The notes beneath the pieces were generated by a model that saw only the letters and a list, made by a program, of their open reading frames with translations, was not told the DNA's origin and did not search any database. 64,000 bases of DNA from Chiloscyllium plagiosum (lineage: Eukaryota), in NCBI RefSeq assembly GCF_004010195.1, contig NC_057719.1:35592064-35656063 (forward strand). The letters run 5' to 3'. A program made the position numbers and the translations under genes. Within the stretch, counting starts at the first letter, position 1, and each line of letters begins with the position of its first letter. Positions 1-43,700 of the stretch are shown piece after piece.

Positions 1-382
1 CTTTTCCAGCAATAAAGTTTCAACTTTGATCTCCAGCATCTGCAGATCTCACTTTCTCCTCGAAGATTTCAACCTACTGCGAATCCTCTTACAAGGATGC
101 CTTCCTTGAAGAAGCTCTCTGCCTCTCTCTACAAAGATTTCAGTGAGTCCCTCTCTCACTGCACACCCCAGGTCTATCACATTTCCAACTCCCCTCCTCC
201 AAGTCCCTCCTCCCTACCTTTTATCTTCTCCTGCTGAACACTCTCTGCTCATTCCTGAAGAAGGGCCTGTGCCCGAAACGTCGAATCTCCTGTTCCCTGG
301 ATGCTGCCTGACCTGCTGTGCTGTTCCAGCAATAAAGTTTCAACTTTGATCTCCAGCATCTGCAGACCTCACTTTCTCCTCC
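1..382 (+). mobile_element. Penelope-like element terminus (partial tandem repeat) containing a hammerhead motif
   Basis: A ~58-nt unit (ttccagcaataaagtttcaactttgatctccagcatctgcaga..ctcactttctcctc) occurs at ~4-61 and ~324-381. CTGAAGA...GAAACGTC at 255-282. Related sequence recurs at ~19645-19951, ~21990-22120 and ~24995-25090. Confidence 0.6.
251..286 (+). ncRNA. Minimal type I hammerhead ribozyme motif
   Basis: Stem I ATTC(251-254)/GAAT(283-286). Core CTGAAGA(255-261). Stem II GGGC-CTGT-GCCC(263-274). GAAA(275-278), a palindromic ACGT mini-stem III and a GUC triplet ending at 282. Confidence 0.65.
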
Positions 383-399
383 AAACAGTCTGAGCCTTA

Positions 400-2750
400 T
401 ACAGCCACAGCTGTACATCCCTGTTCTTTGATTGTAGCCGTCCTGAACTGAATGCTAACATTGCAGTTGCCTTCCTAACCACCATCTGATTCTGCATGTT
501 AACCTTAGGAGAATCCCAAACTAGGACTCCTAAGGCCCTTTGCATTTCAGATTTCCAAAGCCTTTCCCCATTAAAATGTCACCCCTTTTCTTCCAACTAA
601 AGTGCATAACCTCACACTTCCTCACATTATATTCCATCTACCACTTCTTTGCCCACTTTCCTAGCCTGTCCAAGTCGTTCTGCAGCCTCCCAGTTTCCTT
701 AACAATACCAGTCCTTTCACCTGTGTGTCATCTGCAAATTTATTAGCAAAGCCCTTAGCTACTTCATCCAAATTGTTAACATACATATATAACACGAACA
801 GCTCTAGTTTCAAAACTGACCTCTGCAGAACTCCACTACTCACCAGCTGCCACCCTGAAAAAGGCATCTTTATCCCCATTCTCTGTCTTCTGCCAGTGGG
901 CCAATCCTCTCAGTCAGTAACTTGCCCCTAACACCATGAGATCTTGTCTTATTTAGCTGCCTTCTGTGCATCATCTTGTCAAAGGCTTTTGAAATCAAAA
1001 CAGATCATGTCCTTTGGCTCGTTGTCTAACTTGTTCATTAACCATCTCAGAATTCCTCAGAAGACCTCCCCTTGATGGGGCCATGCTGCCTCAGCCTTAT
1101 TTTACCATGCACTTCCAAGTAACTTGCAATCGTATCCTTAATAATGGACTTCAAAATCTAACCAAGGTCAGGCTAGCTGGCCTATAATTTCCTGTTTTCT
1201 GCCTCCCTTCTTTCTCAAATAGGAGCGTTACACTAGCCATTTTCCTGTCTTCCATGACCCTCCTTGACTCTAGTGATTCCTGGAAGATCACTAATTCCTT
1301 CACAATCTTTTCAGTTATTTCCTTCAGAACTCTGGGGTGTAGTCCATCTGGTGCAGATGATTTAACCACCTCCAGTCCCTTTCAGCATCCCCAAGAACTT
1401 CTCCTTTGTAATGATAAGACCATAAGGCCATTCAGCCCATCCAGTCCACTCTGCCATTCAATCATGGCTGATGGGTATTTCAATGCCACTTACCCACACT
1501 CTTCCCGTATCCCTTAATATCTTGCAAGATTAAGAACTTATCAATCTCTACCTTGAAGACATTTAACGTCCCGGCCTCCATTACGCTCCGTGGCAGTGAA
1601 TTCCACAGGCCCACCACTCTTGCTGAAGAAATGTCTCCTCATTTCAGTTTTAAACTAATTCTAAGGCTGTGCCCAAGATCTGTTGTATCCCCACCTGAAG
1701 GAAACAATGATCACCACACTCACCTCTGTCTCCAACTATCTTGAAGTTCTGGTCTGCTGCTGGTGTCTTCCACCGTGAGGACTGATGCAAAGTTCCTATT
1801 TGGTCTCTCTACAGGTTTTTTAATCCTGTCCAATGTCCACTCTTGCCTTGCTTACCTTTTATAGGTCTAAAAAGCTCTTGCATTATTCTTTTATATTACT
1901 AGCTGGTTTAGTAATTTTATCCTCTCCCCATTATTCTTTTGTTTTAAAAAAAGGCTTCCCACCGATCTTCACCACACTATGCTTTTTCTTCTGCTTTTAT
2001 CCTGTCCCTGACTTCCCTGGTCAGCCATGGTTGCCTCATCCTTCCCTTCGTACGTTTCCTTTTCCTTGGAATGAATTTCTGTGCTTCCCAAACTACCCCA
2101 GAAACTCCTGCGGCTGCCACTATGCTGTCTTCCCTGTTAGGCTTCCCTTTCAATCAACCCTGGCCAGCTCCTCCCTCATATCTGTGTAGTCACCTTTACT
2201 TATTTGTAATATCATTATGTTTGATTCCAGCTGTTCTGTGTAAAACTGCAGGGTGATTTCTATCACATTATGGTCTCAGGTTCCTTCACCTTAAACTTCC
2301 TAATCATTTGTGCGTCATTACACATCACTAAATCCAGGATTGCCTGTTCCCTATTGGGCTCTAATGAAAGCCGCTCCCAAAAACAAAACCATCTCAGACA
2401 TTCCACAAATTTCTTTTCTTGAGCTATTACCAACCTGATTTTTTCCAGTCCATCTGCATGTTGAAATCCTCCATAATTATCATAATAGTGCCTTTCTAAC
2501 ATGCTATTTCTGGTTTATTTTCTGCCCAACATTCTTCTTAGAGATCTGCACCCAACTCCAATCAGGGTCTTTTTTCCTTTGTGGTTCCTCAACTCTACTC
2601 ACGCAAATTCTAATTCTTCCAACTCTTTCACTTCTTGGTATTGACTTAATTTCTTACAAACAAGACAACCTCGTCCAACCTTTCAATAGGAAGCTTATCC
2701 TTGGATATTTAGTTCCCAGCCCCAATGCCTTTATAGCCATGTCTGTGAAG
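400..2750 (-). mobile_element. Degenerate CR1-type LINE (EN/RT fragments) with a nested CR1 3' fragment at ~1415-1700
   Basis: Minus-strand fragments KFADDT, PDGLHPRVLKE, NYRPASLT and EPNREQAILDLV. Many stops and frameshifts. Confidence 0.8.
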
Positions 2751-3490: not shown

Positions 3491-3703
<213 letters not shown>

Positions 3704-6566: not shown

Positions 6567-6884
<318 letters not shown>

Positions 6885-8215: not shown

Positions 8216-8536
<321 letters not shown>

Positions 8537-8823: not shown

Positions 8824-8911
8824 CTGTTAGACTTCAGTCCATAATGTATGTCAGTGTTGATGTTGTAAGCTATGTGCTCCTTCTCCTCTTCCCCTTCATC
8901 TCCAACATCCT
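8824..8911 (-). CDS. DYNC1H1: DYNC1H1 exon 2 (88 nt; not in the ORF track)
   Basis: ttgacag|AG GAT GTT GGA...TCT AAC AG|gtgc encodes (E)[28 protein letters not shown](S). Phases join exons 1 and 3 in frame. Confidence 0.95.
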
Positions 8912-10399: not shown

Positions 10400-11300
10400 C
10401 CGCAGTATTTTATTTTTGGGCTGTCGCAGGAATGAGGAAAAACCCCAAGGGAAATCTTGCAGCTGAGCCGGGAGTAGTGGGCCTTCGATATTGACAGCCT
10501 TGTTGTCAGCTCCAGAGCTTCCTTCGTTCCACTTTTGTTTTAGGCTGTCGCTGCCGATTCATCAGGTGGGTCGTTCATGGACACAGCCGGCATTCAGTGT
10601 TGGGCTGGGGAGAAAAAGGCTGTTCTCCGAATGGGTGTGGCCGGCTTCGGCAGATCAGAGAAACCAGGATCCCGGTTGCTTCAGCGGCGGATCACCAAAC
10701 CTCACCTTTCAGAGTGGTCCTCTCCACCAGCACCGTGTGCATCTGGGGGTCGGAGAGGAATTTTTTCATCTGCTCCAGCGCACTCTTCTCCTCGAAGGCC
10801 ACCTCCAGGGCAGCCGGCGCCTCGCCGCCATCTTCCAGCAGCAACGGCACCAGTTTGCGAATGTGTTTCTGCAAAAGCGACACGTCGGCCACATTTTGCA
10901 CTGTCACTTCCAGGCCGGTGGTGCCGTCTTCGCCACCGCCACCGCCACCACCTCCTCCTCCTCCTCCTCCTCCACTTTCGGACATATTGCGATCCTTCTG
11001 TGATCCACCACCACCAGCTCCAAATGAACAGAAAGCAGCAACAACACCCAGACTAACTGAGACTAAGCGACCGCTGTGTCACGTGGCACTGCAGAGGTGA
11101 GGTAATGCAGCACCGCAATGCCCGCTGGGTGTTGTAGTTCGCCCCGGCGGCCAACAATGTCCAGTTGTCGCCAGCGCTGCAGATTTAAACTACAACTTCC
11201 AGGATGCATCGCCAGAACCAGGGGTATGCTGTTATTCTTTATCATCCTTTCCCCCTTTAACATGATTTTTTTCGCGACGATGCATCTGTTGTTTGCGTTT
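10400..11300 (-). promoter_or_regulatory. DYNC1H1: CpG island / promoter and 5'UTR of DYNC1H1
   Basis: Locally GC- and CpG-rich around exon 1. Contains an E-box GTCACGTG (11078-11085) and two ACTACA-extended ZNF143/Staf-like sites (11115-11138 minus, 11189-11212 plus). The TSS cannot be determined from sequence. Confidence 0.8.
10706..10985 (-). CDS. DYNC1H1: Cytoplasmic dynein 1 heavy chain 1, coding exon 1 (280 nt; start codon)
   Basis: Translates MSES(G14)[75 protein letters not shown], matching the recalled human N-terminus. Donor AAG|gtgag at 10705. Lies in a CpG island. Confidence 0.97.
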
Positions 11301-12354: not shown

Positions 12355-15300
12355 AAGCTAGGTGGTAAATTGAAAAGCAGAACAGCTAAAAAAAAATGCT
12401 GTAATAATCTCTGGATTACTACCTGAGCCACGAGCTAATTGGCACAGGATCAATAAGATTGAGCAGGTAGACATATGGCTCAGAGATTGGTGTAGGAGAA
12501 ATGCATTTGAATTTATTGGACATTGGTACCAGTACTGGGGAAAAAGGGACCTATTCTGATAGGATGGTCTTCATCTGAACTGTGCTGCAAACAGAGTCCT
12601 AGTGAATTCTGTAACTAGGGCTGTCGAGAAGGCTTTAAACTAAATGATTGGTGAGCAGGGTTTAACTTTAGGGAAAATTAGAAAACCCGAATTAAAGGAG
12701 GAGGTGAAAGTACAGAACTCAGGAGGGGTTATTAAAATCTCCAGTACAGACATAAATAGGACAGAGTGTATGGAAAGGGTTAGCAATCAAACTTCAAGCA
12801 CACTGGACAAATACATGACAATGAGAAAAAGATTGGTTAATACAGGACTGAAGGCTTGCAGTATAAGGAATAAGATAAATGGGCTTGTAGCGCAGATCAA
12901 AATTGGCAAGTATGATGTGGTGGGCATTACAGAGACGTGGCTGCAAGAGGATCAGGATAGGGAGCTAAATATTCAAGGATATACATCCTATCAAAAAGAT
13001 AGGCAAGTGGGCAGACAGGGTGAGTTGTCTTATTAGTAAGAAACAAAATTAAATGGTGTTGAATCTGTGTGAGTAGAATTGAGGAACCGCAGAAGGTTAA
13101 AAAAAAGTTGAAATTACATACAGGCTTCCAAACAGTAGTCAGGAGCTGGGGCACAAAATACACCAGGGGATAGAAAAGATGTGTAGGAAAGGCAAAGTTA
13201 CAGTGACCATGGGAGATTTCAATATGCAGGTGGACTGGGAAAATCAGATTGGTAGTGGAGTGCAAGAAAAGGAATGTGTGGGATGTCTATAAGGTGGCTT
13301 TTTGGAGTAGCTTGTGGTGGAGCCCAATAGGGAACAAGCAATACTGGATTTAGTGTTGTGCAGTAAGGTAGACTTGACAAAGGAGCTTAAGGTGAAGGAA
13401 ACCTTAGAAGGCAATGATCATAATATGATTGAATTTACACTGCAATTTGAACGGGAGAAGATAGAATCCGAGGTAACAGTATTACAGCTAAATAAAAGCA
13501 ACTACAGAGGCATGAATGAGGAGCTGGGTAGAGTTGATTGGGAGAGGAACCTAGCAGCAAAGACAGTGGAACAGCAATGGCAGGAGTTTCTGGGAGTAAT
13601 TCAGGAGAGTCAGCAGAGATTCATCTCGAGGAAAAAGAAGCATGGTACAAGGAAGATAAGGTGACTATGGCTGACTAGGGAAGTCAGGGTTAGCATAAAT
13701 GCAAAAGAGAATGTATATAATCTGGTGAAGGACAGTGGGAAACCAGAAGATTGGGAAGCTTACAAAGACCAACAGAGGGCAACAAAAAAAGGAGGGAGAA
13801 GATTAAATATGAGGGTAAGCTAGTCAGTAATATATAGGAAGACTGTAAGAATTTCTTTAGAAATATAAAGAGCCCAAGAGAGGCAAAAGTGGACATTGGG
13901 CTGCTGGAAAATGAAGTTGGAGAGATAGAGAGGCAAAAGTGGACATTGGGCTGCTGGAAAATGAAGTTGGAGAGATAGTAGTAGGGATCAAGGAAATGGC
14001 TGAGGAATTGAATAATAACTTCACGTCAATCTTCACGGTGGAAGACACAAGTAATATCCCAAACATTCAAGAGAGTGAGGGGGCAGAGCTGAGTATGGTG
14101 GCCATCACCAAGGAGAAGGTGCTATAAAAACTGAATGGCCTCAAGGTAGATAAATAACCTGGACCAGATGGACTATACCCCAGAGTTCTTAGGGAGATAG
14201 TGGAGGCATTAATGATGATATTTCAGGAATCGCTACAATCAGGGAGGGTCACAGAGGACTGGAAAATCACTAACATGACACCTCTGTTTAAAAAGGGAGT
14301 ACGGCAAAATAGGGAAAATTACAGACCTGACCTCAGCCTGACCTCAGTCGTGGGTAAGATCCTGGAATCCATTGTGATTTCTAAGTTATGTAAGTTTATG
14401 GTAAAATAGGGCAAGATCAGCATGGTTTCATCAAGGAGAGATCATACTTGACAACTCTGATAAAATTCTTCGAGGAAGTAACAAGCAGGTTAGACCAAGG
14501 AGAGCCAATGCACGTCATCTACCTGGGCTTCAAGAAGGCCTTTGACAAGGTGCCGCATGGAGGCTACTGAGTAAGATAAGGGCTCATGGTGTTAGAGGCA
14601 AGGTGCTAGCATGGATAGAAGCTTGGCTGTCTGGCAGAAAGCAGAGAGTGGGGAAGAAAGGGTCCTTCTCAGGATGGCAGTCGGTGACAAGTGGTGTTCC
14701 ACAAGGCTCAGTGTTGGGACCACAACTTTTCACTTTACATATTAATGATCTAGATGAAGGAACTGAAGGCATTCTGGCTAAATTTACACATAATACAAAA
14801 ATAGATAGAGGGACTATTAGAATTGAGGAGTCAGGGAAGCTGCAGGAGGATTTGGGTAGGTTAGAGGCTTGGCAAAGAAAGGGCAGATGGAGTACAATGT
14901 GGGAAAATGTGAGGTCATGAACTTTGGTAGGAAGAATAGAGGCATGGACTGTTTTCTAAATGGGGAGAAAATTCAGAAATCTGAAGTGCAATGAGACTTG
15001 GGAGTTCTAGTCCAAGATTCTCTCGTGGTAAGCCTGCAGCCTGAGTCAGTGGTTAGGAAGGCAAATGCAAGGATGGCATTTATTTTGAGAGGACTTGAAT
15101 AAAAAGCAGGGATGTATTTCTGAGGCTTTATAAGACTCTGGTCAGATCCACATTTGGAGTATTGTGTGCACTTTTGGGCCCCATATCTCAGGAAGGATGT
15201 ACTGGCCCTAGAGCGTGTTCAGTGGAGCTTCACGGGAATAGTCCCAGGAATGAAAAGCTTAACATCTGAGTCTCTATTCGATGGAGTTTAGAAGGATAAG

Positions 15301-17240: not shown

Positions 17241-19330
17241 ACATAGAGTCATAGAGATGTACAGTACAGAAACAGACCCTGCGGTCCAACTTGTCTATGC
17301 CAACCAGATATCCCAACCCAACCTAGTTCCATCTGCTAACATCTGGCACATATCCCTCCAACCCATATTCATATACGGATCCAGAATTCTTTTAAATGTT
17401 GTAATTGTACTAGCCTCCACCACTTCCTCTGGCAGTTCATTCCATATGCGTACCACCCTCTGTATGAAAAGTTGCCCCTTAGGTCTCTTTTATACCTTTT
17501 CCCTCTCACCCTAAACCTATGCCCTCTAGTTCTGGACTTCCCCACCCCACGGAAAAGACATTGTCTATTTATCCTATCCATTCTCTCATGATTTTATAAA
17601 CCTCTATAATGGTCACCCCTCCGCCTCCAACGCTCCAGGGAAAACAGCTCTAGCCTATTCAACCTCTCCCTATAGCTCAAATCCTCCAACCCTGGCAACA
17701 CACTTGTAAATCTTTTCTGAACCCTTTCAAGTTTCACAACACCTTTCTGATAGGAAGGAGACCAGAATTGCACACAATATTCCAACAGTGGCCTAACCAA
17801 TGTCCATTACAGCCGCAACATGACCTTCCAACTCCTGTACTCAGGACACCGACCAATAAAGGAAAGCATACTAAACGCCTTCTTCACTATCTATCTACCT
17901 GAGACTCCACTTTCAAGGAGCTATGAACCTGCACTCCAAGGTCTCTTTGTTCAGCAACACTCCCCAGGACCTTACCATTAAGTGTGTAAGTCCTACTAAG
18001 ATTTGCTTTCCCAAAATGCAGCATCTCGCATTTATCTAAATTAAACTCCATCTGCCACTTCTCAGCCCATTGACCTATCTTATCAAAATCCCCTTGTAAT
18101 CTGAGGTAACCTTCTTTGATGTCCACTACACCTCCAATTTTGGTGTCATCTGCAAACTAACTAACTATACCGCTTATGCTCGCATCCAAATTATTTATAT
18201 AAATGATGAAAAGTAGTGGACCCAGCACCGATCCTTGTGGCACTCCACTGGTCACAGGCCTTCAGTCTGAAAAACAACCCTCCACCACCACCTTCTGTTT
18301 TCTACCTTTGAGGCAGTTCTGTATCCAAATGGCTACTTCTCCCTGTATTCCATGAGATCTAACCTTGCTAACCAGTCTCCCATGGGGAACCTTGTCGAAC
18401 GCCTTACTGAAGTCCATATAAGTCACACCTACCACTCTGCCCTCATCAATCCTCTTTGTTACTTCTTCAAAAAACTCAATCAAGTTTGTGAGACATGATT
18501 TCCCACGCATGAAGTCCCCATGTTGACTATCCCTAATCAATCCTTGCCTTTCCAAATACATGTACATCCTATCCCTCAGGATTCCCTCCAACAACTTGCC
18601 CACCAACGTCAGGCTCACTGGTTTGTAGTTCCCTGGATTGTCCTTACCACCTTTCTTAAACAGTGGTACCACGTTAGCCAACCTCCAGTCTCCCGGCACC
18701 TCACCTGTGACTATCAATGATACAAATATCTCAGGAAGAAGCCCAGCAATCACTTCCCTAGCTTCCCACAGAGTTCTAGGGCACACCTGATCAGATCCTG
18801 GGGATTTATCCACCTTTATGTGTTTCAAGACATCCAGCACTTCCTCCTCTGTAATATGAACACTTTTCAAGATGTCACCATCTATTTCCCTACATTTTAT
18901 ATCTTCCATATCCTTTTCCACAGTAAACACTGATGCAAAATACTCGTTTCATATCTGTCCCATCTCCTGCAGCTCCACATAAAGGCTGCCTTGCCGATCT
19001 TTGAGGGGCCCTAGTCTCTCCCTAGTCACCCTTTTGTCCTTAATGTATTTGTAAAAACCTTTTGGATTCTCCTTAACTCTATTTGCCCAAAGTATCCCGT
19101 GTCCCCTTTTTGCCCTCCTGATTTCCCTCTTAAGAATACTCCTACTGCCTTGATACTCTTCTAAGGATTCACTCAATGTATCCTGTCTATACCTGACATA
19201 TGCTTCCTTCTTTTTCTTAACCAAACTCTCAATTTCTTTAGTCATCCAACATTCCCTCTACCTACCAGCCTTTCCTTTAACTCTAACAGGAATATACTTT
19301 CTCCAGACTCTTGTTATCTCATTTCTGAAG
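17241..19330 (-). mobile_element. Relatively young 5'-truncated CR1 LINE
   Basis: Long RT fragments (GKSCLTNLIEFFEEVT, YMDFSKAFDKVPH, VRPLLEYCVQFWSP) and a CTCTATGA tandem tail at the 3' end. Same family as 37420-38562. Confidence 0.92.
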
Positions 19331-19644: not shown

Positions 19645-19951
19645 TGTCTTCTGGATTAGTGGTGCTGGAAGAGCACAGCAGTTCAGGCAGCATCCAAGGA
19701 GCTTCGAAATTGACGTTTCGGAGAGATAAGCTAGAGGAGGGTGGGAGTGGGGAGAAAGTAGCATAGAGTACAATGGGTGAGTGGGGGAGGGGATGAAGGT
19801 GATAGGTCAGGGAGGAGAGGGTGGAGTGGATAGGTGGAAAAGGAGATAGGCAGGTAGGACAAGTCCGGACAAGTCATGGGGACAGTGCTGAGCTGGAAGT
19901 TTGGAACTAGGGTGAGGTGGGGGAAGGGGAAATGAGGAAACTGTTGAAGTC
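19645..19951 (-). mobile_element. Penelope-like repeat terminus running into the gap
   Basis: gctggaagagcacagcagttcaggcagcatcc..gacgtttcg followed by a purine-rich body. It is the reverse complement of the family at 1-382. Confidence 0.6.
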
Positions 19952-20942
19952 NNNNNNNNNNNNNNNNNNNNNNNNNNNNNNNNNNNNNNNNNNNNNNNNN
20001 NNNNNNNNNNNNNNNNNNNNNNNNNNNNNNNNNNNNNNNNNNNNNNNNNNNNNNNNNNNNNNNNNNNNNNNNNNNNNNNNNNNNNNNNNNNNNNNNNNNN
20101 NNNNNNNNNNNNNNNNNNNNNNNNNNNNNNNNNNNNNNNNNNNNNNNNNNNNNNNNNNNNNNNNNNNNNNNNNNNNNNNNNNNNNNNNNNNNNNNNNNNN
20201 NNNNNNNNNNNNNNNNNNNNNNNNNNNNNNNNNNNNNNNNNNNNNNNNNNNNNNNNNNNNNNNNNNNNNNNNNNNNNNNNNNNNNNNNNNNNNNNNNNNN
20301 NNNNNNNNNNNNNNNNNNNNNNNNNNNNNNNNNNNNNNNNNNNNNNNNNNNNNNNNNNNNNNNNNNNNNNNNNNNNNNNNNNNNNNNNNNNNNNNNNNNN
20401 NNNNNNNNNNNNNNNNNNNNNNNNNNNNNNNNNNNNNNNNNNNNNNNNNNNNNNNNNNNNNNNNNNNNNNNNNNNNNNNNNNNNNNNNNNNNNNNNNNNN
20501 NNNNNNNNNNNNNNNNNNNNNNNNNNNNNNNNNNNNNNNNNNNNNNNNNNNNNNNNNNNNNNNNNNNNNNNNNNNNNNNNNNNNNNNNNNNNNNNNNNNN
20601 NNNNNNNNNNNNNNNNNNNNNNNNNNNNNNNNNNNNNNNNNNNNNNNNNNNNNNNNNNNNNNNNNNNNNNNNNNNNNNNNNNNNNNNNNNNNNNNNNNNN
20701 NNNNNNNNNNNNNNNNNNNNNNNNNNNNNNNNNNNNNNNNNNNNNNNNNNNNNNNNNNNNNNNNNNNNNNNNNNNNNNNNNNNNNNNNNNNNNNNNNNNN
20801 NNNNNNNNNNNNNNNNNNNNNNNNNNNNNNNNNNNNNNNNNNNNNNNNNNNNNNNNNNNNNNNNNNNNNNNNNNNNNNNNNNNNNNNNNNNNNNNNNNNN
20901 NNNNNNNNNNNNNNNNNNNNNNNNNNNNNNNNNNNNNNNNNN
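19952..20942. other. Assembly gap (991 N)
   Basis: Run of N. Confidence 1.
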
Positions 20943-21504
20943 AATCTTTATTCAAATTCCATCACCAGGAAGATAGGAAAACACCCGGGTGGCCAGTGAC
21001 AAGCACTGCCCTTCACATCAGAGGGCAGTGCTGTGTGATCAAAACAGTGAAGGGGAGGGTAGGGACTAAATCAAAATAGAATTGGAGGGAGAAATTATGC
21101 ACTCCACTCCCTGCGGCGCCCACCTCTCCCTGAACAACTCCAGGTTGTTGGTGGACACCGCGTGCTCCTTCTCCAAGGACACCCGGGCCCTAACGTAAAT
21201 CCCCTGTTTATTTCTTTTTCTTTTCTTTTTTTTTCCACAAAGTGCACGAATCTTTATTCAATTTCCATCGCCAGGAAGATAGGAAAAACACCCAGGTGGC
21301 CAGTGACAAACACTGCCCTTCACATCAAAGGGCAGTGCTGTGTGATCAAAACAGTGAAGGGGAGGGTAGGGACTAAATCAAAATAGAGTTGGAGGGAGAA
21401 ATGATGCACTCCACTCCCTGCGGCGCCCACCTCTCCCTGAACTCCTCCAGGGTGTTGGTCGACACCGCATGCTCCTTCACCAAGGACACCCGGGTCCTAA
21501 CGTA
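20943..21504 (-). mobile_element. Two tandem ~306-bp copies of a Tx1/L1-clade LINE 3' end
   Basis: Minus strand reads YVRARVSLEKEHAVSTNNLELFRERWAPQGVECIISPSNSILI*, followed by a 3'UTR with a hairpin, AATAAA and an A-rich tail. Period 306-307. Confidence 0.7.
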
Positions 21505-21689: not shown

Positions 21690-22410
21690 GGATATAGAGA
21701 TAAAAGGTTACTATCAGGACATCCACTAATAATCTTTAGTTTCTGGGAAGTCCCAGAGGATTGAAAACTGCCAAATGTTACACCCTCATACATAAATGGG
21801 GATGTGGGGGGATAAAAAAAACAGGTAAGTATAGGCCAGTTCATTTAATATCTGTTGTTGGGAAAATGTTAGACTCTACAGCATGCAATAGAGCATTTAA
21901 AAAAAATCATGCAGAGATAGCATGGCTTCATGAATGGGCAGTCATGCCTGACAAATTTATTACAGTTCTTTGAATAAGTCAAAACAAGATAAAGGAGAAA
22001 GTGAGGACTGCAGATGCTGGAGATCAGAGCTGAAAGTGTGTTACTGGAAAAGCGCAGCATGTCAGGCAGCATCCAAGGAACAGGAGAATCAACTTTTCGG
22101 GCATAAGTCCTTCTTCAGGATAAAGGACAACCAGGAGATGTAACAAATTTAGATTTCCAAAAGGCATCCAAAATGATATTGTACATTAGACTACTTAATA
22201 AGATCCAGTGGTGTTGGGAGTAATATGAGTATGGATGGAGGATTGGCTAAATAATAAAAGGCAGAGTTGGAATAACAGGGGCATTCTTCGGATGGCTACT
22301 TGTAATTAGTGGAGTCCCACAGGAATCTGTGCTGGGACCAAAATGATTTACAAGATATGTTAACCTATGATCTATATATTAACAATCAAAATTTGCAGAT
22401 GACAACTTTG
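21690..22410 (+). mobile_element. Decayed CR1 RT fragment interrupted by a Penelope-like short repeat (~21990-22120)
   Basis: YRPVHLISVVGKMLDS, ggagtcccacaggaatctgtgctgggacc and aaatttgcagatgac. Confidence 0.75.
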
Positions 22411-24344
22411 AACTATTTCAAACATTAAGAATAGTAAGAAAAACAGGCTTATATATAGCAGATTAAATATGATTCAGAAAAAACGTGACTTTTTTTAAAG
22501 GAAAAATGAGCACAGTTCTAGAGGGGATGCAAAAAAAGAATTCAAGGCATAAAAGAGGGCACAAAAAATTTCAGAATCTGCTAACACCACCCTTGCAGGC
22601 AGTCTTCAGGTAGGTTCCACTCGAGTCTGTTTGCAAGTTGATTAAAACTCAAGTCGGAACATAATGCAGGACAATGTAAATGAGTCATTTGTAAGTACAG
22701 GAAATATTCACATGCCAAAAATTGTACCCCCAAATGACATCGTGTTCCTATATACAAGCATTCATAAATCGGGACCCCGCGTATTTAAGAAACAGAATGA
22801 GACAACAAACAGGTATCATCTTTCTTTGGTTGTACTACTGTTAACATGTATTTCAATGTGTCAACCCTCCAAATATTGCCATTTAGCTCCATCTCAAACA
22901 GTTCCACTTGAAACTTCGGAATGCTGCACTTCATTGAGGATCAATATTGCATAATACTGAAGTTTCGATACTGCATTGCACTAAAAATTGTTGATTATGT
23001 TGAATCAGTCTGCGTACAGGTGTTTGAAATTGTTCGCGGCTTCAATTATATCACGTGGTCTGTTCTGTTTCAGTTTGAATCTCGTGCCTTGTCACTGGAC
23101 AGAAATCTGTGCGGACTGGTCGTTCTCCCACAGCTGGACCATTGGCATCTATTAGGTAGAAGATTTCAGAAAGTAGAGTGTGAATCTGCCAAGTGTATTG
23201 AATTGTTGATCATTTATACACTGTGAGACAATCACTTCGACTGTACTGTAGAATGCCACTTATTGACGTAGTTGCTCCTGTGTCTACGATTTTAGCTGTG
23301 TGTGTCATTCTGCCTTTTCAGGACATGCGATACCAATGCGGAAAGCCTGTCATTTTCTGAAATTTGGTTGATTCTCAACCTCACTTACGTATTTATTTTT
23401 GTGCATCATTTTAACTTTAGTTACTGCCAGTGTTGTGATGTTGTACTGAGTCATTTGTGTTTTGTTCTGTGATCTGCTTTGGCCTTTGGAACCACGTGCA
23501 AGCCGAATTTCCCTCGTCTCACGTCAAGAAATGCCGACAGCATTTTAGTAAGTAAACCCGTGACTGTTATTGATATTATTGGTTTGTTGCATTTTGCTGA
23601 TTACAGTAACAATCGTGACTGCACCTTAAGCATTAAATTGCTGTTGGCCTGCCTTCCTGTCCATCCTAAAGTAATAAAGACTTTCTCTTGCTCAAAAGAT
23701 CCTTCCTGAAGGTTTTTGTTGTGGAGGCAATGACTAACTCATTGAGCTTGACATTTCTCTTCAGAAATGTCACTTATTTTCCTGTTGCGCCATTTTAAAA
23801 AAAAATGGTGGATAGACTCATAGAGCATGTTATTCCTTAACTTCTTACCTTGGACAAGTTTTTGAGAAGCTTTGAAATTTTTTTTCTGGACCTTTCTGAC
23901 CATCTATGGAAAAACTTAATTCTGTAAAATACCACCTTGTCAATGGCAAGCAAGAGTTTGAGTTCTCAGGATTACCTAAAGTTTGGATCTGTGGAATAGA
24001 ACTGCATATGGTTTGAATAGTTACAGTTGTGAATTGTGTCACTGGATGTTCAATCCATAATTATGTTGGACTACAATTGGAATAAATAAACAGGTCAGTC
24101 AGACTAGCAGACTGACAGTAGTGGGGTAATGCCAGGATTAGTGCTTGTCCCAGCTATTCACAATCTATCAATTATTTGATTATAGGGACCAAATGTAGTA
24201 TTTCTATGTCTGCTAATGACAAAGTGAAGAAGGAATGGGAGTTATGAAGAAGATGCAGATGCCTCATGACATTGATAGTCTACCATGTTCTCACTCACTC
24301 AGCTGGAGTATAATGAGGAAAACTGAGAGGTTATCCATATTTAT

Positions 24345-26500
24345 ACAGTCAGTTGTACAACATGGAAACAGACTCTTCAGTTCAACTCATTCATGCTGGC
24401 CAGATATTCTAAATTAATCTAGGTGCATTTGTCAGCATTTGACCTGCATTCTCCCCGCCTCCCCCCCAGGCCTTGCAATTCATGTACCCATTCAGATGCC
24501 TTTTAAATGTTGCAATTGTGCCAGCCTCCACCAGTCCCTCTGGCAGCTGATTCCACACACAGACCGCTCTCTGCATGAAAATAATGCACCTCAGGTCCCT
24601 CTTAAAGCTTTCCCTGCTTATCTTAAATCTGTGCCCTCTAGTTTTAGTCTCCCCTAACCTGGGGAAAAGTCCTTGGCTATTCACCCTATCAATGCCTCTC
24701 AGGATTTTATAAACTTCTGTAAGGCCAGCCTCAGTCTCCAATGTTGATCGGAAAACAGCCTCAGCCTATTCAGCCTCTCCTTGAAGCTCAAACCCTCCAA
24801 CCCTAGCAACATTTCTTGTAAATCCTTTTGGAACCCTTTCAAGTTTCACAACATCCTTCCCGTAGCAGGGAGACCAGAAGTGAATGCAGTATTCCAAAAG
24901 TGGCCGAACTAAGGTCCTGCAACATGACATCCCAATTCCTATACTCCGTGCACTGGCCAATAAAGGCAAGTGTACCAAATGTCTTCATCATACTTGGAGA
25001 AAGTGAGGACTGCAGATGCATGAAGGGCTTTTGCCCAAAACATCGATTTTCCTGCTCCTCAGATACTGCCTGACCTGCTGTGCTTTTCCTTCATCACTAC
25101 TTGTCTACCTGCAACTCCACTTTCAGGGAACTATGAACTTATATCCCATGGTCTCCTTGCTTAGCAACATCTAAAATTTACAAATTGTACAAGTCCTGCT
25201 CTGATTTGCCTTACAAAAATGCAACATCTCACAGCTGTCCAAATTAAATCCACCTACCACTTCTTGACCCATCAGATCAAGGTCCTGTTGTACCCTGAGA
25301 TAACCTTCTTCACTGTTCACTATTCCAGCAACTTGGGATAATGTGCAAACTTACTGACCATACTTACACATTCAAATCATTTATATAAATGACAAAAAGC
25401 AGTGAGCCTAACACTGATCCTTGTGGCACAGACTTCCAGTCTGAAAAACAACCTTCAAGCCAGTTTTGTATCCAAATGGCTTGCTCTCGTTGAATTCCAT
25501 ATGATCTAACCTTGCTAACAAGTCCACCATGTGGAACCTTGTTGAACACCTTGCTGAAGTCCATATTAACAACATTCACTGCCTTCAATCTTTGTCACTT
25601 CTTCAAAAAACTCAATCAAGCTAGTGAGACACAATTTCCCATGCACAAAGCCATGTTGACAATCCCTGATCAGTCCTTGCTCTTCCAAATATATGTAAAT
25701 CCTGTCCCTCCAACAATTTACTCACCACTGACAACAGGCTCACTGGATTATACTTCCTGACTTTTCTTTACCACTTTTCTTAAAATAATAATCCCACATT
25801 TAGCCACCATCCAGTCATATGGCACTTCACCTATGTCTATCAATAATTTAAATATCTCAGGGGCCCAGTAATCATTTCTCTAGCTTACTACAAAGTTCTG
25901 GTGATCAGGTTCCAGAGATATATCTGCCTTTTTACATTTTAAGAAGTCCGGTACCACCATCTCTGTAATATGGGCATTTTTCAAGATATCGTTATTTATC
26001 ACCAAGTTCTCGAGTTTCCATATGCGGTACAGTGGCTCAGAGGTTAGCCCTACTGCCTCAGTGCTGTGAACCCAGAATAACCTCTGCCCGCTAGCGATTG
26101 TCTGTGTGAAGCTTGCACATTCAGTGTGTGTGGGTTACCTTTCGGTGCTCTGGTTTCCTCCCACAGTCCAGGGATGTGCAGGTTAGGTGGGTTAACATTG
26201 CAAATGCAGGGCTACAGGAATAGGACAGAGAGATGAGTCTGGTTGGGATGCTCTTTGGAGGGTCATTGTAGACCTGATGGCCGAATGGCCTGCTCCCGCA
26301 CTGTTGTGATTCTATGGTTCTCCACAGTAAATACTGATGCAAATTACTAGTTTAGTATCTCATCCATTTCCTGCAGTTCCACACACCAACAGTCTTGTTG
26401 ATCTTTTAAGGGGCCCCATTCTATCCCTTGTCAGTCTTTTGTCTGTAATCTATTTCTAGAATCTCTTTAGATTGTCCTTAATCCTATTTGGCAAAGCTAG
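24345..26500 (-). mobile_element. Decayed CR1 LINE with nested short repeats
   Basis: [32 protein letters not shown] and LVRPLLEYCIHFWSP on the minus strand. Confidence 0.85.
26024..26320 (+). mobile_element. tRNA-derived V-SINE (HE1-like) inserted in the CR1
   Basis: Head gcggtacagtggctcagaggttagc (A-box-like), V-domain-like ggtttcctcccacagtcca..gatgtgcaggttagg, and CR1-type tail ggccgaatggcct..gattctatg. Confidence 0.8.
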
Positions 26501-29904: not shown

Positions 29905-31690
29905 TAAAGTCAGAGATGTACAGCACGGAAACAGACCCTTCAGTCGAACTCGTCCATGCCGATCAAATAAGTCTAGTCCCATTTGCCAGCAGTTGGCCCT
30001 ATACCTCTAAACCTTTTCCTAATCATGTACCCATTCAGATACCTTTCAAATGTTATTGTCCCAGCCTTCACCACTTCCTTTGGAAGCTCATTCCGTACAT
30101 ACATCACCCTCTGTGTGAACAAGTTGCCCCTTAGGTTCCTTTTTAATTCTTTCCTATCACCTTAAACCTATGCCCTTTTGTTTTGGAAACCCCCACCCGA
30201 GGGAAAAGACCTTGTCTTTTTACCCTATCCATGTCCCTAATGATTTTATAAACCTCTATAAAGTCATCCCTCAGCCTCCAATGCTCCAGGGAAAATAGCC
30301 GCAGCCTGTTCAGCCTCCCCTATAGTTCAAACTGTCCAACCCTGGCAACATCCTTGTAAATCTTTTCTGAACTCTTTCAAGTTTCACAACATCCTTCCTA
30401 CAGAGAGAGACCAGAATTGAACGCAGTATTCCAAAAGTGGCCTAACCAATGTCCTGTACAGCCCCAACTCCTATATGCAGTGCACTGATCAATAAAGGAA
30501 AGCAGACCAAATGCCTTATTCACTATTCTACCTACCCGTGTCTCCACTTTCAAGGAATTACAAACAAGGAAGTATAGGAACAGGCCCATCGGCCCTCCAT
30601 GCCTGTGGTGACACATTTTGCCCTTCCATATTAAAAGTCTTCACTTACATGATCTGTATCCCTCTATTCCTTTCCAAATCATGAATTTGTCCAGGTGCTT
30701 CTTGAATCCTGCTATTGTGTCTGCTTCCACCATCACCTATAGCAGCACATTCCAGGCACTCACCATCACTTGTTAAAAACATGCCTTGCACATCTCTTCA
30801 ATTTCTCCCCCATCCCACTCTCGCAATTGAACTTGTGGCTCCCAGTAATTCAACCCTCCACCCTGGGAAAAAGCCTCATACTTTCCACTCTATCCATGCC
30901 ATTCACAATCTTTTAAACTTTTATCAAGTCACCCCTCAACCTCCTGCATTCCAGTGAAATCAAATCCAGTCTATCCAACCTTTCTTCATACCCGAAATCC
31001 CCCATACCAGGCGACATCCCAGTCAATCTTTTCTGTAACCTCTCCAAATCATTCACATCCTTCTAGTAGTGTGGTGACCTCACTGAAGTTCAATAAATCT
31101 GCAGCATAACCTGTCCATCCTTATACTCAATGCCCCTTCCAATGAAGGCAAGTCACAGGCCTTTTTTACTATCTTATCAACTTGCACTGCCACCTACAGT
31201 GATTTGTGGATCTAGATCTCTATGCACATCAATACACCGAAGGGCTCTGCCATTCGCTGTATATTTTCTACGTGTACTTGATCTTCAAAAATGCATCACC
31301 TCACGAGGTCTTCCAAGACCTTTGTTCAGCAACACTTCCCTGTACCTTACCAATAAGTGTGTAATTCCGGCCCTGATTTGCTTTTCCAAAACGCAGTAGC
31401 TCACATTTATGTAAATTAAATGCATCTGTCACTCCCTGGCCTATTGACCTATCCAAACAAGATCCCATTGTACGCTGAAATGACTTTCTTCGCTGTGTAC
31501 TATCATCACCAATTTTTATGTCATCTGCAAGCTTACTAACTATACTTATGTTCACATTCAAATCATTTATATAAATAACAAAAAGCAGTGGACCTAGCAC
31601 TGATCCTTGTGGCACACCACTGGTCACAGGCCTCCAGCTTGAAAAGCAACCCTCCACCACCACCACCCTCTTCTACCTTTTGAGCCAACA
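29905..31690 (-). mobile_element. CR1 LINE 3' part with a second CR1-type fragment nested at ~30560-31305
   Basis: [32 protein letters not shown], and a 3' end agagatgtacagcacggaaacagaccc. Confidence 0.85.
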
Positions 31691-32654: not shown

Positions 32655-32836
32655 AGTACTGCAGAAACTCAGTAAGTATGGTAGCATCTGTGGAGAAAGA
32701 AACAAAGTTAACATTTCGAAATTACTCTTCTTTGGAACTCTGTTACACTCTCCACAGATTCTGCCATTCCTGCTGAGTTTTTCCAGCACACTGATTTTAT
32801 TTCAGATCTCCAGCATCTGCTATATTTTGCTTTTAT
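32655..32836. repeat. Inverted-pair short repeat (Penelope-derived/SINE-like) within the putative PPP2R5C 3'UTR
   Basis: Arms 32665-32696 (aaactcagtaagtatggtagcatctgtggaga) and 32749-32780 (tctccacagattctgccattcctgctgagttt) are imperfect reverse complements. Confidence 0.65.
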
Positions 32837-37260: not shown

Positions 37261-37419
37261 TACACAGAGCAAATTCTATTTTTATCCACTTGTGGCAAGA
37301 TCCCATGCAGGGCCAAATGGATTCAATAAAAATAAACCTTAGACTGCTCCAAATTTTCTGCAATTTTTTTAAATGGGATACAACACCTTCATTATTTTAA
37401 ATTTACACCATCATACCCT

Positions 37420-38562
37420 ATGGGAGACTGATTAGCAAGGTGAGATCTAGCGGAATACAGGGAGAACTAGCCATTTGGATACAGAACTGGCTCAAAGGTA
37501 GAAGACAGAGGGTGGTGGTGGAGGGTTGTTTTTCAAACTGGAGGCCTGTGACCAGTGGAGTGCCACAAGGATCGGTGCTGGGCCCTCTAATTTTTGTCAT
37601 TTACATAAATGATTTGGATGTGAGCATAAGAGGTACAGTTAGTAAGCTTGCAGATGACACCAAAATTGGAGGTGTAGTGGACAGCAAAGTGGGTTACCTC
37701 AGATTACAACAGGATCTGGACCAGATGGGCCAATGGGCTGAAAAGTGGCAGATGGTGTTTAATTCAGATAAATGAGAGATGCTGTATTTTGGAAAAGCAA
37801 ATCTTAGCAGGACTTATACACTTAATGGTAAGGTCCTAGGGAGTGTTGCTGAACAACCTTGGAGTGCAGGTTCATAGCTCCTTGAAAGTGGAGTTGCAGG
37901 TCGATAGGATAGTGAAGGCGACGTTTGGTATGCTTTTCTTTATTGGTCAGAGTATTGAGTACAGGAGTTGGGAGGTCATGTTGCGGCTGTACAGGACATT
38001 GGTTAGACCACTGTTGGAATATTGCGTGCAATTCTGGTCTCCTTCCTATTGGAAGGATGTTGTGAAACTTGAAAGGGTTCAGAAAAGATTTACAAGAATG
38101 TTGCCAGAGTCGGAGGATTTGAGCTATAGGGAGAGGCTGAACAGGCTGAGGCTGTTTTCCCTGGAGCGTAAGAGGCTGAGGGGTGACCTTATAGAGGTTT
38201 ACAAAATTATGAGAGGCATGGACAGGGTAAATAGGCAAAATCTTTTCCCTGGGGGCAGGGAGTCCAGAACTAGAGGGCATAGGTTTAGGGTGAGAGGAGA
38301 AAGATATAAATTAGACCTAAGGGGTAACTTTTTCCACACAGAGGGTGGTACATGTATGGAATGAGCTGCCAGAGGAAGTGGTGGAGGCTGGTACAATTGC
38401 AACATTTAAGAGGCTTTTGGATGGGTATATGAATAGGAAGGGTTTGGAGGGATATGGGCCGGGTACTGGCAGGTGGGACTAGATTGGGTTGGGATATCTG
38501 GTCAGCATGGACTGGTTGGACCGAACGGTCTGTTTCCATGCTGTACATCTCTATGACTCTAT
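37420..38562 (+). mobile_element. Young 5'-truncated CR1 LINE
   Basis: [31 protein letters not shown] and LVRPLLEYCVQFWSP, with tail ctctatgactctat. Confidence 0.92.
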
Positions 38563-38728
38563 AAGAGAAAAATGTTTAAATGAAACAATGAATCTGCAAA
38601 GTTAAACAGAAGAATTAAATCTGATAATTCAACAGTGATCAATTTAGAGTCTCATGAGGCTTGTATATAAATTTCTTTCATGACGTTCATAAGAAGCAAA
38701 GTAGTATCATTTTGTAGCCATCTTATAC

Positions 38729-40763: not shown

Positions 40764-43700
40764 CTAAGTCTTGAATGGTTTGGTGCAAAGTTACTTATTG
40801 GACCAAGTTATGCACTTTACAGCTACCACACCTCAAACTTAAGTCACAAAAGGAGTATATTCAATAAGCTTCATATGCTAACCTTGTAAAGTAGGTAAAT
40901 GGATAACGTTGCACGAAGGCACTGATTTACATAAGTAACAGCAAGTTCCATGGCACGTTTTCCTTTCTTCATTCACACCATTTGGGTCCTATATGCTGCA
41001 ACTAATACTGAAAATCTTGCTCAAAGCAACTGTCATATCCCTTCAAAGTGGGATTTTATAGAAAAAATTATAATTTTTGGAAATCAGATAAAAAGTGAAA
41101 ATTACATTTATTCTTTGCAGTTACTTTAGAACTCAAATTGGTTAACTGATAAAGCTGGTAGCTCCCTTCCCCATTTAGGGCAGTAAAATTTACAGTGAAA
41201 TTCTAAAAGGTCACTGCATCTATTCTGAACTCAAGCCTACACAAAATATATTCATTTGAATTAATACGATCAAGCCTGATATACAACATCTTATGACATT
41301 GTTTTTATGCCTGATTTTATATGGATATCATTATGATCCCAGTTGATGCCAATATTGGAAAAGTCAGATCTTAAGAGTGAGATCTGGCTGAAAAAGTTTT
41401 ATTCTTTTTGGTTTTTAAGGTTAGTCACTGAGCAGTATTCACAAGAGGCTACTTCAAACAAAACGACAAAATTTTATTTTTCATAGAGAAAACAAACTAG
41501 ACCAACACTATACAGGAATTATTGAAACAAACTCTTTACAAATAGAGTACAAGACAAAAAGCTGACAAAATGGGATTTGATAATAGAAAAGACCAACTAC
41601 CAAAGTGCTAATTAACGTCACCATCACTGAGTTCAAGAAATCAGCTAGATTTCCCCTAAATAGGTTCTAGGAAGGATCATTGGTTAATGTCCATGTAGAC
41701 ATAGGATGGAGGTAGGGTGATATTTAGTTGTGATACCTTCATAAAATAGTGGCATTGGACACACATGTTAAAAACAACCACTTCAATTGATATTGGACGT
41801 TTTAAGTTTCCAAAGAGTGATACCAGCTTCTGGAACCATACCTGGTAGAGTTGGGGGATTTGGGAGGGAAAAGACAAGGTTTACGAGAATTAAAGCTCCT
41901 AATTCCTGTGCGTACTATTATTACTTGTACTGAATACAACTATCCACACTGGTTTAAGGGTTCCCATATTTGTCCTTTTCGGATACACAGGTGTGTGAAT
42001 AAAGATTGATTCCCAAGAACATACACTGGAAAGTGACAAAATGTCTACAGTATCTCCAATTTATCTTAGTCGTCACCAGAATTGAAACATTACCATTGCT
42101 TTTTTCCCCCACAGATGCAGCTAGACCTGCTGACTTTTCCCAGCAATTTGTTTTGTTTTAGATCTTCAGCATCTGCGGTTTTTTGTTTTAGATTTTTTAC
42201 ATCCCAACATATTTGCAAAGAAAATATTTTTGTTACCTTTTACATCTCTTAACTTTTTTTTTCTTCTCTATTCACTTATTGTGCTAAATGAACCAGTCAA
42301 ACTTATTTTCTGACTCAGAATTTACACAGCTTGTTTAAAATTCTTCAAATTTCGTCACTTAAGGAGTTGCAAATTGCCTGTAGAGGGCACCATGTCTTTC
42401 TAAGGTTCAGTGTGATGCAAATACATTCTAAGCCAGTTGGTCAGGTTGAAACAGAGACAAATATCTTTTTCTTGTGGAGAATGTTTACTGACTAAGTCCT
42501 ATCCCTCTTATCTCATATCCAGTGTCACAGATGCTTCCATCTGTATATGTTCAAACAATTAATATCCACATGAATCTAGCAATGATCACGCATTAACAAT
42601 GATTAATGGTGAATGTAATGAATGGGACTGTCCACAAAGTTCGACCCAATGTCACCATGGGATTGTTACTTCATGCCATAAAGTATGAGTGATTTTGAGC
42701 TGCAGTCTTACACGCATCAGCAATTGAATCAAAATTTTGAAAATACTCAAGTGATGTGGATGTTTCTGACAAGGGCAGCATTTGTTCCCCATCTCTAATG
42801 TCCCTTGATCTAACTGGCTTGCCACAATAAACAGCCAACAACATCACCGTGGACCTGAATTTATATATATTAGATAAAAAATTGTTGATTACTTTTTTTA
42901 CACAGAGGAAGAAGTTTGTGAACCAGATGGTTTTTCAGAACACTATGATAATTTCATGGTCACCATTAACAGTCTCATGTTTAATTCTAAATTTAGAAAT
43001 TGAATTTATTTGAAGCAAATAAGTATACTTAACCAACAAAAAAAGCCACTAAGCATTAATCAATTATAAACTAATCTGCAATTGAAATTCTGTTAAGTCC
43101 CTAAAACATGAGTCAAATGCTCTGGACATTATCTAATGACATTAACACTATGCCACAATTGCTCCTTTTGTAATTCTGCAATGTTGAGATTCAAAATTGA
43201 GAGAATAGATTAACTGACCATGTGGCAACAATTTCTGAATTCTTAAAAACACATCAAATGACTAAAGTTTCACCATATGCACTCTGAAGAGGCACACGTA
43301 TTTCCTAATTATAAGAGTTGCATGCTAAAATTGGGCATTTAGAGGTTACTACATTTTTAAAAATTATAAACGAAACTTTGTTATTTTACCCAAATGGATC
43401 TTGTGCATTTCAATACGCTTAGAAACAAATAACTTAACCACCTAAAGCTATAAAATATTCATCAGTTACAATCTAATACACAATGTTCCCCTTTAACAGA
43501 ACTGAATACAGCATTACCCAACTTCAAATGTTTTGTCCACCTTTGAACGTGACACTACAAAATACTTCTAGCAAAATATCAATGGATCATTACTAAAGGA
43601 ATTCACTCATTCATCTCTACTTGAGATTTTCATTTAATAAGAATTTCTCCTTTATAAATAATCCACAACAGGAGTATTTAAATAGCTCTACAACCCCTCT

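What the first reader, a model, noticed from the sequence alone, without database searches (positions are those of the whole stretch)
251..286. Intact-looking minimal hammerhead ribozyme in a Penelope-like repeat in DYNC1H1 intron 5
Seen: all hammerhead core elements in order. These are CUGAAGA, a perfect 4-bp stem II (GGGC-CUGU-GCCC), GAAA, a 4-bp stem I (AUUC/GAAU) and a GUC cleavage triplet. Stem III is reduced to the palindrome ACGU. Known: Penelope-like retroelements carry such minimal type I hammerheads, which are proposed to cleave as dimers via the palindromic stem III. Inference: this abundant shark repeat family may spread self-cleaving RNA motifs genome-wide. This copy is antisense to DYNC1H1, so it would not cut the pre-mRNA.
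Basis: partly seen in the sequence, partly recalled or inferred. Interest (0 to 1): 0.7.

Follow-up and report, generated by a model that had tools for sequence, protein, structure and literature searches.

The report
Shark Penelope hammerhead in dynein intron
This is a real, well-formed copy of a tiny self-cutting RNA motif (a minimal hammerhead) already known from Penelope-like jumping genes; it lies on the strand opposite the dynein gene, so it is likely an ordinary leftover of a very common shark transposon that would not cut the gene's RNA.

Summary
Observation confirmed. The motif begins a ~131-nt terminal repeat whose last 62 nt recur 320 nt upstream. Between the two lie 26 codons 96% identical to a shark protein whose N-terminus is related to RT + GIY-YIG proteins. 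DYNC1H1 runs on the minus strand, so the motif is antisense in intron 5.

In 2,277 RNA reads of the family, variation concentrates at N7, loop II and CpGs. However, the 4-bp stem I is a minority state: position 285 is A in about 13% and T in 75% of reads, giving a U·U mismatch, and no majority compensating change was seen. Most copies begin near 251, not at the cut (282/283), and the reads show no cleavage step. Cleavage was not tested.

This is a new member of a known kind. The scan found the same thing before on other DNA (770 notes, at least 36 genomes). Low interest.

The parts
251..286 (+). Minimal type I hammerhead motif (stem I 251-254/283-286; core 255-261; extra A262; stem II 263-274; GAAA 275-278; palindrome 278-281; predicted cut 282/283)
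   Evidence: Sequence; fits the published descriptor; shuffle test
251..381 (+). Terminal repeat (pLTR-like unit, about 131 nt) that begins with the hammerhead; the most frequent dispersed form of the family
   Evidence: Read depth rises 3-fold at 250-254 and 210 reads have unrelated sequence before 251; loose ends behind 380/381; copy at 21993-22120 spans 253-380
174..250 (+). Pyrimidine-rich stretch upstream of the repeat, likely the element's 3' untranslated end; in other copies it continues upstream in different sequence from this locus
   Evidence: Loose ends before 174 in 92 and 98 contigs of runs X1, X4; one 510-nt contig in X18 matches 174-380 with 2 differences
1..62 (+). 3' part of a second, upstream terminal repeat (3 mismatches to 321-382); its 5' part and any hammerhead would lie outside the window
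63..174 (+). Leader plus first 26 codons (97-174) of the element's ORF, cut off by a deletion or template switch at 174/175
   Evidence: 25 of 26 residues identical to N-terminus of P0001; P0001 N-terminus related to RT/GIY-YIG proteins
3517..3703 (-). DYNC1H1 coding exon 5; intron 5 runs from 3516 past the left edge of the window
6609..6864 (-). DYNC1H1 coding exon 4
8319..8492 (-). DYNC1H1 coding exon 3
8824..8911 (-). DYNC1H1 coding exon 2
10706..10985 (-). DYNC1H1 coding exon 1
21993..22120 (-). Solo terminal repeat of the same family (87% identical); hammerhead decayed (stem II mismatch, palindrome broken)
24996..25089 (+). Family fragment: inverted tail (24996-25019) joined to a 5'-truncated hammerhead with G12 lost
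19663..19947 (-). Related 3' end next to an assembly gap; 5' half of the hammerhead missing

Best explanation
The motif is a minimal type I hammerhead at the start of a terminal repeat that likely belongs to an abundant shark Penelope-like retrotransposon, and this copy sits antisense in dynein intron 5, where it would not cut the pre-mRNA and likely has no host role. SHOWN: the motif; the repeat; the partial tandem (repeat end - ORF start - junction - 3' end - repeat); the orientation; the family's abundance and variation. INFERRED for the parent element: transcription likely starts at A251 (an initiator-like TCA+1TTCC; consensus recalled), so the hammerhead would be the first 36 nt of the RNA. 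Lacking a real stem III, one motif cannot fold a working core. Two motifs would pair through their ACGU palindromes and swap stem I strands, forming a double hammerhead that cuts after C282 slowly and probably only with protein help, as reported for the anole PLE. Most genomic stubs start near 251, so they were likely reverse-transcribed from uncut RNA. INFERRED for this locus: a dead insertion that lost nearly all of its ORF between codon 26 and the 3' end, from a minority sub-lineage whose stem I is fully paired.
For: Fits the published descriptor (stem I 3-7 bp, cuganga plus optional extra nt, stem II 3-7 bp, loop 3-10, gaaannuh) and consensus; the listed fugu, lamprey and Xenopus PLE motifs share the CGUC palindrome/cut segment. 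Extra nt between 9 and 10.1, G10.1-C11.1 and palindromic 15.2-16.2 are named as hallmarks. 2 of 300 shuffles. ORF start matches P0001 (Hemiscyllium ocellatum, 25 of 26) and P0002 (Chiloscyllium punctatum, 17 of 26). P0001 residues 1-163 find 96 proteins, among them P0039, P0050 and P0073 of 882-924 aa. Of 10 proteins scanned (9 hits plus P0002), 3 have GIY-YIG near the C-terminus, 2 have RVT_1, P0050 has both, 6 have no Pfam hit; P0001 vs P0050 E 1e-12. Abundance: 48,013 and 41,855 contigs laid in two runs. Raw RNA run X22 (2,277 reads laid): N7 29% changed, loop II positions 77%, 16% and 69%; CpG positions 7-13%; no row listed for C3, U4, G5, A6, G8, A9, A13, U16.1 or stem II 263-266/271-273 (17 lower-ranked rows were not shown). 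Depth step x3.2/x3.0 at 250-254 but x1.03-1.06 across 282/283. Inverted joints at 251 to 262-270 match the 5' inversions described for PLEs. Anole PLE hammerhead: no cleavage without protein, not needed for insertion, no RNA-seq ends at the cut.
Against: No full-length element was recovered: the link to RT/GIY-YIG is transitive through 26 residues and a ~30%-identity N-terminal domain, and a direct search for longer relatives found none at E<=0.001 among 637 candidates. No Rfam hit. Position 285 takes all four letters (A 13%, T 75%, C 10%, G 2%), so the third pair of stem I is not held in the family and the majority form fails the 3-bp minimum of the descriptor. A14 and A15.1 show A>G in 7.6-7.8% of reads, mostly in one direction. 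Stem I pairing probability is 0.22-0.38 in short contexts and 0.01 with the upstream 76 nt; the double hammerhead (-13.1) is weaker than two monomers (-14.2) and a mispaired dimer (-18.3) (no tertiary terms). The transcription start is inferred only from copy ends and a short motif. Low variation at core positions may partly reflect inheritance from few master elements.
Confidence: 0.85

Rival explanations
1. The locus is a nascent retrozyme-like unit: the deletion at 174/175 put two terminal repeats 320 nt apart, so a plus-strand transcript would carry two hammerheads that form the dimer in cis and release a 320-nt monomer that the parent PLE could mobilise.
For: Repeat spacing is exactly 320 nt with 3 mismatches in 62. 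Animal non-LTR retrozymes are 170-400-nt tandem units, average 363 bp in the one chondrichthyan sampled, and are proposed to derive from PLE pLTRs. This copy has the best-paired stem I in the window.
Against: The upstream hammerhead lies outside the window and was not seen. None of the 25 listed contig pieces bridges 174/175 (seven end, start or stop within a few bases of it) and loose ends at 174 show the ordinary upstream sequence, so nothing shows the junction is amplified, though most pieces were not displayed. Retrozymes mostly carry canonical type I motifs.
Confidence: 0.07
2. The motif descends from a hammerhead but no longer cuts in this family; it persists as a promoter-proximal or protein-binding hairpin (stem II), and the paired stem I of this copy is incidental.
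For: Majority form has a U·U mismatch in stem I and a double-hammerhead energy of only -6.7 kcal/mol. No cleavage signature in RNA reads. Hammerhead mutants do not affect anole PLE insertion in vitro, and Naiad PLEs spread without canonical hammerheads.
Against: The catalytic core letters, the extra nt and the palindrome are all kept, also in a second family with different stems (55716-55761 minus strand). Earlier scan notes report U6 fusions at the predicted cut in this genome (not tested here). Random-fragment reads from mostly decayed passenger copies are a weak test of cleavage.
Confidence: 0.25
3. The copy has been co-opted by the host, like the conserved intronic hammerheads of amniotes, to process an RNA at the DYNC1H1 locus.
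For: It is the only intact copy of four family copies in the window and lies in an essential gene.
Against: Antisense to the gene; minimal, monomer-incompetent form; near-identical to a sub-lineage found in another organism's run (2 differences in 207 nt), so intactness is explained by youth; sits among other dead repeats.
Confidence: 0.02
4. Chance resemblance to a hammerhead.
For: No Rfam hit; folding energy ordinary.
Against: 2 of 300 shuffles; exact fit to the published PLE descriptor at the expected place in a PLE-like repeat; variation pattern in reads; same architecture with different stems in a second family.
Confidence: 0.01

Closest known systems
Minimal hammerheads (min-HHR) in pLTRs of metazoan Penelope-like elements (Cervera & de la Pena 2014, PMC4209133; main text parts 1-2 of 4 read, two of three supplement files searched)
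   Same: Type I, no real helix III, palindromic 15.1-16.1, extra nt after A9, G10.1-C11.1, short helix I, mostly dispersed single motifs from truncated elements; low activity even as dimers.
   Different: No shark entry in the two supplement files searched (file 1 not searched). Stem II is 4 bp, at the short end. Most family copies have a U·U mismatch at the third pair of stem I.
Hammerhead of the anole Poseidon element PAc (PMC11167929; passages read)
   Same: Hammerhead in the pLTR just upstream of or over the ORF start; uncut RNA appears to be the template; no RNA-seq ends at the cut.
   Different: In PAc the ORF starts at stem II; here the matching ORF start lies about 35 nt beyond the end of the terminal repeat. 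Distant full-length relatives here carry a Cys-rich linker before the GIY-YIG domain, which the literature ties to Neptune/Nematis clades; clade not tested by a tree.
Animal non-LTR retrozymes (PMC7229834 and bioRxiv 10.64898/2026.07.22.740005; passages read)
   Same: Short hammerhead-bearing unit, 320-nt spacing of repeats, PLE origin proposed.
   Different: Only a partial two-unit arrangement is visible, second hammerhead unseen, motif minimal rather than canonical, no evidence of amplification or circular RNA.
D. virilis Penelope internal promoter (PMC2377424; passages read)
   Same: Initiator-type start inside the terminal repeat, downstream copy transcribed from upstream repeat.
   Different: Start site here is inferred from copy ends only; no intron was shown here.

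Membership tests
PLE minimal hammerhead (min-HHR) | Core CUGANGA and GAAANNUH | tested here: met
   255-261 and 275-282 vs descriptor
PLE minimal hammerhead (min-HHR) | Stem II 3-7 bp, loop 3-10 nt, G10.1-C11.1 | tested here: met
   4 bp, loop 4, G263-C274; pairing probability 0.91-0.99
PLE minimal hammerhead (min-HHR) | Stem I 3-7 bp | tested here: met
   Met for this copy (4 bp). Not met by the family majority (2 bp + U·U + 1 bp)
PLE minimal hammerhead (min-HHR) | Extra nucleotide between 9 and 10.1; palindromic helix III remnant | tested here: met
   A262; ACGU 278-281
PLE minimal hammerhead (min-HHR) | Conserved core and covarying stems across copies | tested here: inconclusive
   Core less variable than N7/loop II in reads (17 rows hidden; reads are not independent events). 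No compensatory change listed within the family; different stems with the same core in a second family. No genome-wide alignment possible
PLE minimal hammerhead (min-HHR) | Self-cleavage after H17 as a dimer | not testable with these tools
   Needs in vitro assay; reads show no step or pile-up at 282/283, a weak test
Rfam hammerhead families | Score above gathering threshold | tested here: not met
   No hit; so not filed under an Rfam family
Penelope-like element (endonuclease-positive) | Single ORF with RT and C-terminal GIY-YIG | tested here: inconclusive
   Only 26 codons remain at the locus; linked through P0001 to P0050 (RVT_1 + GIY-YIG), P0039, P0073. No full-length family member recovered
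Penelope-like element (endonuclease-positive) | Partial-tandem structure with pseudo-LTRs | tested here: met
   1-62 repeats 321-382 with ORF start following the upstream repeat; joints 381 to 63 in three runs
Penelope-like element (endonuclease-positive) | 5' truncation and 5' inversion of copies | tested here: met
   Opposite-strand joints at 250/251 to 262-270; inverted tail at 24996-25019
Penelope-like element (endonuclease-positive) | RT groups with PLE clade in a phylogeny | not tested
   No RT of this family available
Non-LTR retrozyme | Two or more tandem units each with a complete hammerhead | not testable with these tools
   Upstream unit runs off the window; no genome held
Non-LTR retrozyme | Amplified unit expressed as linear and circular RNA | tested here: inconclusive
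   No listed contig bridges the 174/175 junction (most pieces not displayed); circular RNA not testable

The most novel reading that the evidence does not exclude
The hammerhead is the first 36 nt of the element's transcript, and the family spreads mainly from uncut RNA. Its dominant lineage has opened the third pair of stem I, while the lineage at this locus keeps it closed. The two forms are a natural matched pair for testing whether dimer-dependent self-cleavage (which would remove the cap) brakes Penelope amplification rather than helping it.
Probability: 0.2. Interest if true: 0.5.

Novelty: new member of a known kind. Interest (0 to 1): 0.18.

Why it matters
The motif extends a published class to a shark family that the open-access searches did not show described, which is expected since fish, lamprey, coelacanth, frog and reptile PLEs have it. 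The role of PLE hammerheads is still open. The family offers something toward that question: copy ends at the motif's start rather than at the cut, and two stem I forms. This single antisense intronic copy adds little, and the scan has already logged the family-level points many times.

Tried and rejected
Whole-genome search: no genome held, so no copy number, consensus or covariation count. Rfam at gathering and E<=10: no hammerhead. 23-nt anchor pattern: 0 loci in viral contigs; 4 loci in metagenome contigs, all matching only about 25 nt in unrelated sequence, rejected as chance. Longer relatives of P0001 residues 1-165: none among 637 candidates. Pfam: no family for P0001 or the two ORF remnants at 55907-56457. 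No RNA holder listed on record as RNA. Run X23 laid 0 reads (no test); run X18 laid 1 contig. Contig depths are not copy numbers and were used only for direction. The 3-bp stem I called for the motif at 56578 is probably fortuitous because its 3' end is replaced. A strand-specific loss of reads upstream of the cut was looked for and not found (ratio of directions 1.22-1.53 upstream, 1.27-1.41 downstream); library strandedness is not confirmed. Lunse et al. (PMC5785218) is not held and was seen only as a title and a citation. Sequence look-up in earlier findings and the 'near' look-up returned nothing. Sequence upstream of the window could not be read, so the second hammerhead is untested. bioRxiv supplements and file 1 of PMC4209133 were not seen and may hold shark motifs.

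Full report
Observation. One addition: an unpaired A262 between A9 and G10.1, which Cervera & de la Pena name as a hallmark of PLE minimal hammerheads. The motif fits their RNAmotif descriptor and their consensus, and fugu, lamprey and Xenopus entries share its palindrome and cut segment. A descriptor with both stems >=4 bp hits once in the window, and only 2 of 300 shuffles give any hit; with stem I >=3 bp there are 3 hits versus a mean of 0.013. Against this, Rfam has no hit, the fold is not unusually stable (45 of 200 shuffles as good), and a sequence-only pattern is reached by 5 of 100 shuffles.

Host context. Five coding exons on the minus strand splice with GT/AG ends into an open frame of 328 codons. 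Exons 4 and 5 match cytoplasmic dynein 1 heavy chain 1. The motif lies about 3.2 kb into intron 5 and is antisense, so the pre-mRNA carries its reverse complement, which is not a hammerhead by the same descriptor (only the + strand hit at 255).

Anatomy of the insertion. Bases 1-62 repeat 321-382 with 3 mismatches, 320 nt apart. After the upstream repeat come a short leader and 26 codons (97-174) that match the N-terminus of P0001 from Hemiscyllium ocellatum at 25 of 26 and P0002 from Chiloscyllium punctatum at 17 of 26. P0001 residues 1-163 retrieve 96 proteins. I scanned 10 of the longer ones: three of 882-924 aa have a C-terminal GIY-YIG, two have RVT_1, P0050 has both, six have no Pfam hit; P0001 and P0050 align at E 1e-12. 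This is a transitive link; no full-length member of this family was recovered. At 174/175 the ORF start is joined to a pyrimidine-rich stretch that, in other copies, continues upstream in different sequence. The locus is therefore read as repeat end - ORF start - deletion or template switch - 3' end - repeat: a broken partial tandem of the kind described for PLEs. Whether the upstream repeat still has its own hammerhead cannot be seen.

The family. No genome is held. Twenty of 24 listed runs, from four coded organisms and 8 studies, hold at least half of the sampled words. Two runs lay 48,013 and 41,855 contigs on 63-390, so the family is very abundant; these are not copy numbers. The closest protein relatives are from carpet sharks and a ray. 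Three other family copies in the window have lost core or stem letters.

Variation across copies. In raw RNA run X22 (2,277 reads laid on 225-345, about 2% of the run read; 1,369 under 90% alike), the free position N7 differs in 253 of 880 reads. Loop II differs in 841 of 1095, 177 of 1098 and 765 of 1102. CpG positions 274, 275, 279, 280 and 282 differ in 7-13%. No row is listed for C3, U4, G5, A6, G8, A9, A13, U16.1 or the non-CpG stem II letters; 17 lower-ranked rows were hidden. This is the pattern expected of a constrained hammerhead in the master elements followed by neutral decay. Position 285 is T in 1181 of 1568 reads, C in 160, G in 25 and A in 202, and the same majority appears in DNA contigs, while 252 has no listed change. 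So most copies have a U·U mismatch in stem I and the 4-bp stem is a minority state. A14 and A15.1 show A>G in about 8%, mostly in one read direction. One contig from another organism matches 174-380 with 2 differences, so this copy's form is a shared, young sub-lineage rather than a private mutation (inference).

Where copies begin. Depth rises about 3-fold at 250-254 in both directions, and 210 reads carry unrelated sequence before 251; across 282/283 the step is 1.03-1.06 and no pile-up of read ends is listed. A251 sits in an initiator-like TCA+1TTCC (consensus recalled, not from a call); D. virilis Penelope has an initiator-type internal promoter. I infer that the RNA starts at 251 and that most stubs were copied from uncut RNA, in line with the anole PLE, where uncut RNA is the main template and cleavage needs the protein. 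Three of the four listed joints into 251 end in G, weakly consistent with the 'extra G from the cap' idea in earlier notes.

Mechanism. With only ACGU for stem III, a monomer cannot form the core. Two motifs would pair ACGU with ACGU and exchange stem I strands. By nearest-neighbour energies this double hammerhead scores -13.1 kcal/mol for this copy and -6.7 for the majority letter at 285, against -14.2 for two monomers and -18.3 for a mispaired dimer; stem I pairing probability falls to 0.01 with upstream sequence. Weak, assisted cleavage is therefore the most that is expected, matching published low activity of dimers and none for monomers. Cleavage itself was not tested.

Known or new. It works like, and by the testable sequence features this copy is, a PLE min-HHR; membership of the host repeat in the PLEs is well supported by structure and transitively by protein. 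Searches for hammerhead + Penelope + shark returned one review, where 'shark' refers only to the shape; two supplement files of the 2014 paper have no shark term. A 2026 preprint includes one chondrichthyan genome with hammerhead-bearing repeats and argues for a PLE origin (supplements closed). Papers were seen as follows: PMC4209133 parts 1-2 of 4 plus supplement searches; PMC11167929, PMC6765202, PMC2377424, PMC8557442, PMC6155905, PMC7229834 and the preprint as passages; PMC5785218 not held. The scan itself has 770 notes holding these words in at least 36 genomes and 2,410 fitting notes in this genome; several report the same start-site reading, which I had noted before the word look-up. 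These are AI notes and are not independent support.

Verdict. Real, correctly described, ordinary. New member of a known kind; interest 0.18.

Noticed in passing
window 55716-55761 (-) and 56575-56611 (+), around 55907-56457: A second hammerhead-bearing family: two oppositely oriented motifs with the same core, an extra U after A9 and a 6-7-bp stem II of different sequence, flanking a broken ORF with a GIY-YIG-like segment (weak match to P0050, E 0.003; no Pfam hit). Looks like an inverted-repeat PLE remnant.
   Followed up: partly
window 46845-46885 (+); related tails at 32757-32820 and 42114-42176: A third, decayed hammerhead-like repeat start and two short tails weakly similar to the finding's repeat.
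   Followed up: no
joints 284 to 251 in runs X1 and X4: Contigs with a head-to-tail duplication of the hammerhead itself (36-nt period, two letters between), a natural closely spaced pair of motifs somewhere in the genome.
   Followed up: no
window 50-65 and 370-381: The repeat ends in a CTCAC plus pyrimidine run followed, in the upstream copy, by AAG at 63-65; it resembles a branch point and splice acceptor ahead of the ORF (consensus recalled). Penelope has an intron in its 5' leader.
   Followed up: no
window 392-1371, 14144-15138, 17243-18876, 24341-25990, 29912-31687, 37416-38564: Several fragments of reverse-transcriptase-coding LINE-like repeats (CR1-like by recalled motifs); the finding's repeat abuts one at 382-392.
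   Followed up: no
window 57804-63191 (+): Near full-length L1-like element with ORF1-like frame and frameshifted endonuclease/RT frames (family name from recalled motifs).
   Followed up: no
window 19952-20942: Assembly gap of about 990 N beside a PLE-like 3' end and a 256-nt tandem duplication (20943-21197 vs 21249-21504, 94%).
   Followed up: no
protein P0001: Annotated 'mucin-2-like' in Hemiscyllium ocellatum but its N-terminal 160 residues are related to RT/GIY-YIG retroelement proteins; probably a mis-named transposon ORF.
   Followed up: partly
window 10932-10979 (-): DYNC1H1 exon 1 encodes a run of 14 glycines near the N-terminus.
   Followed up: no
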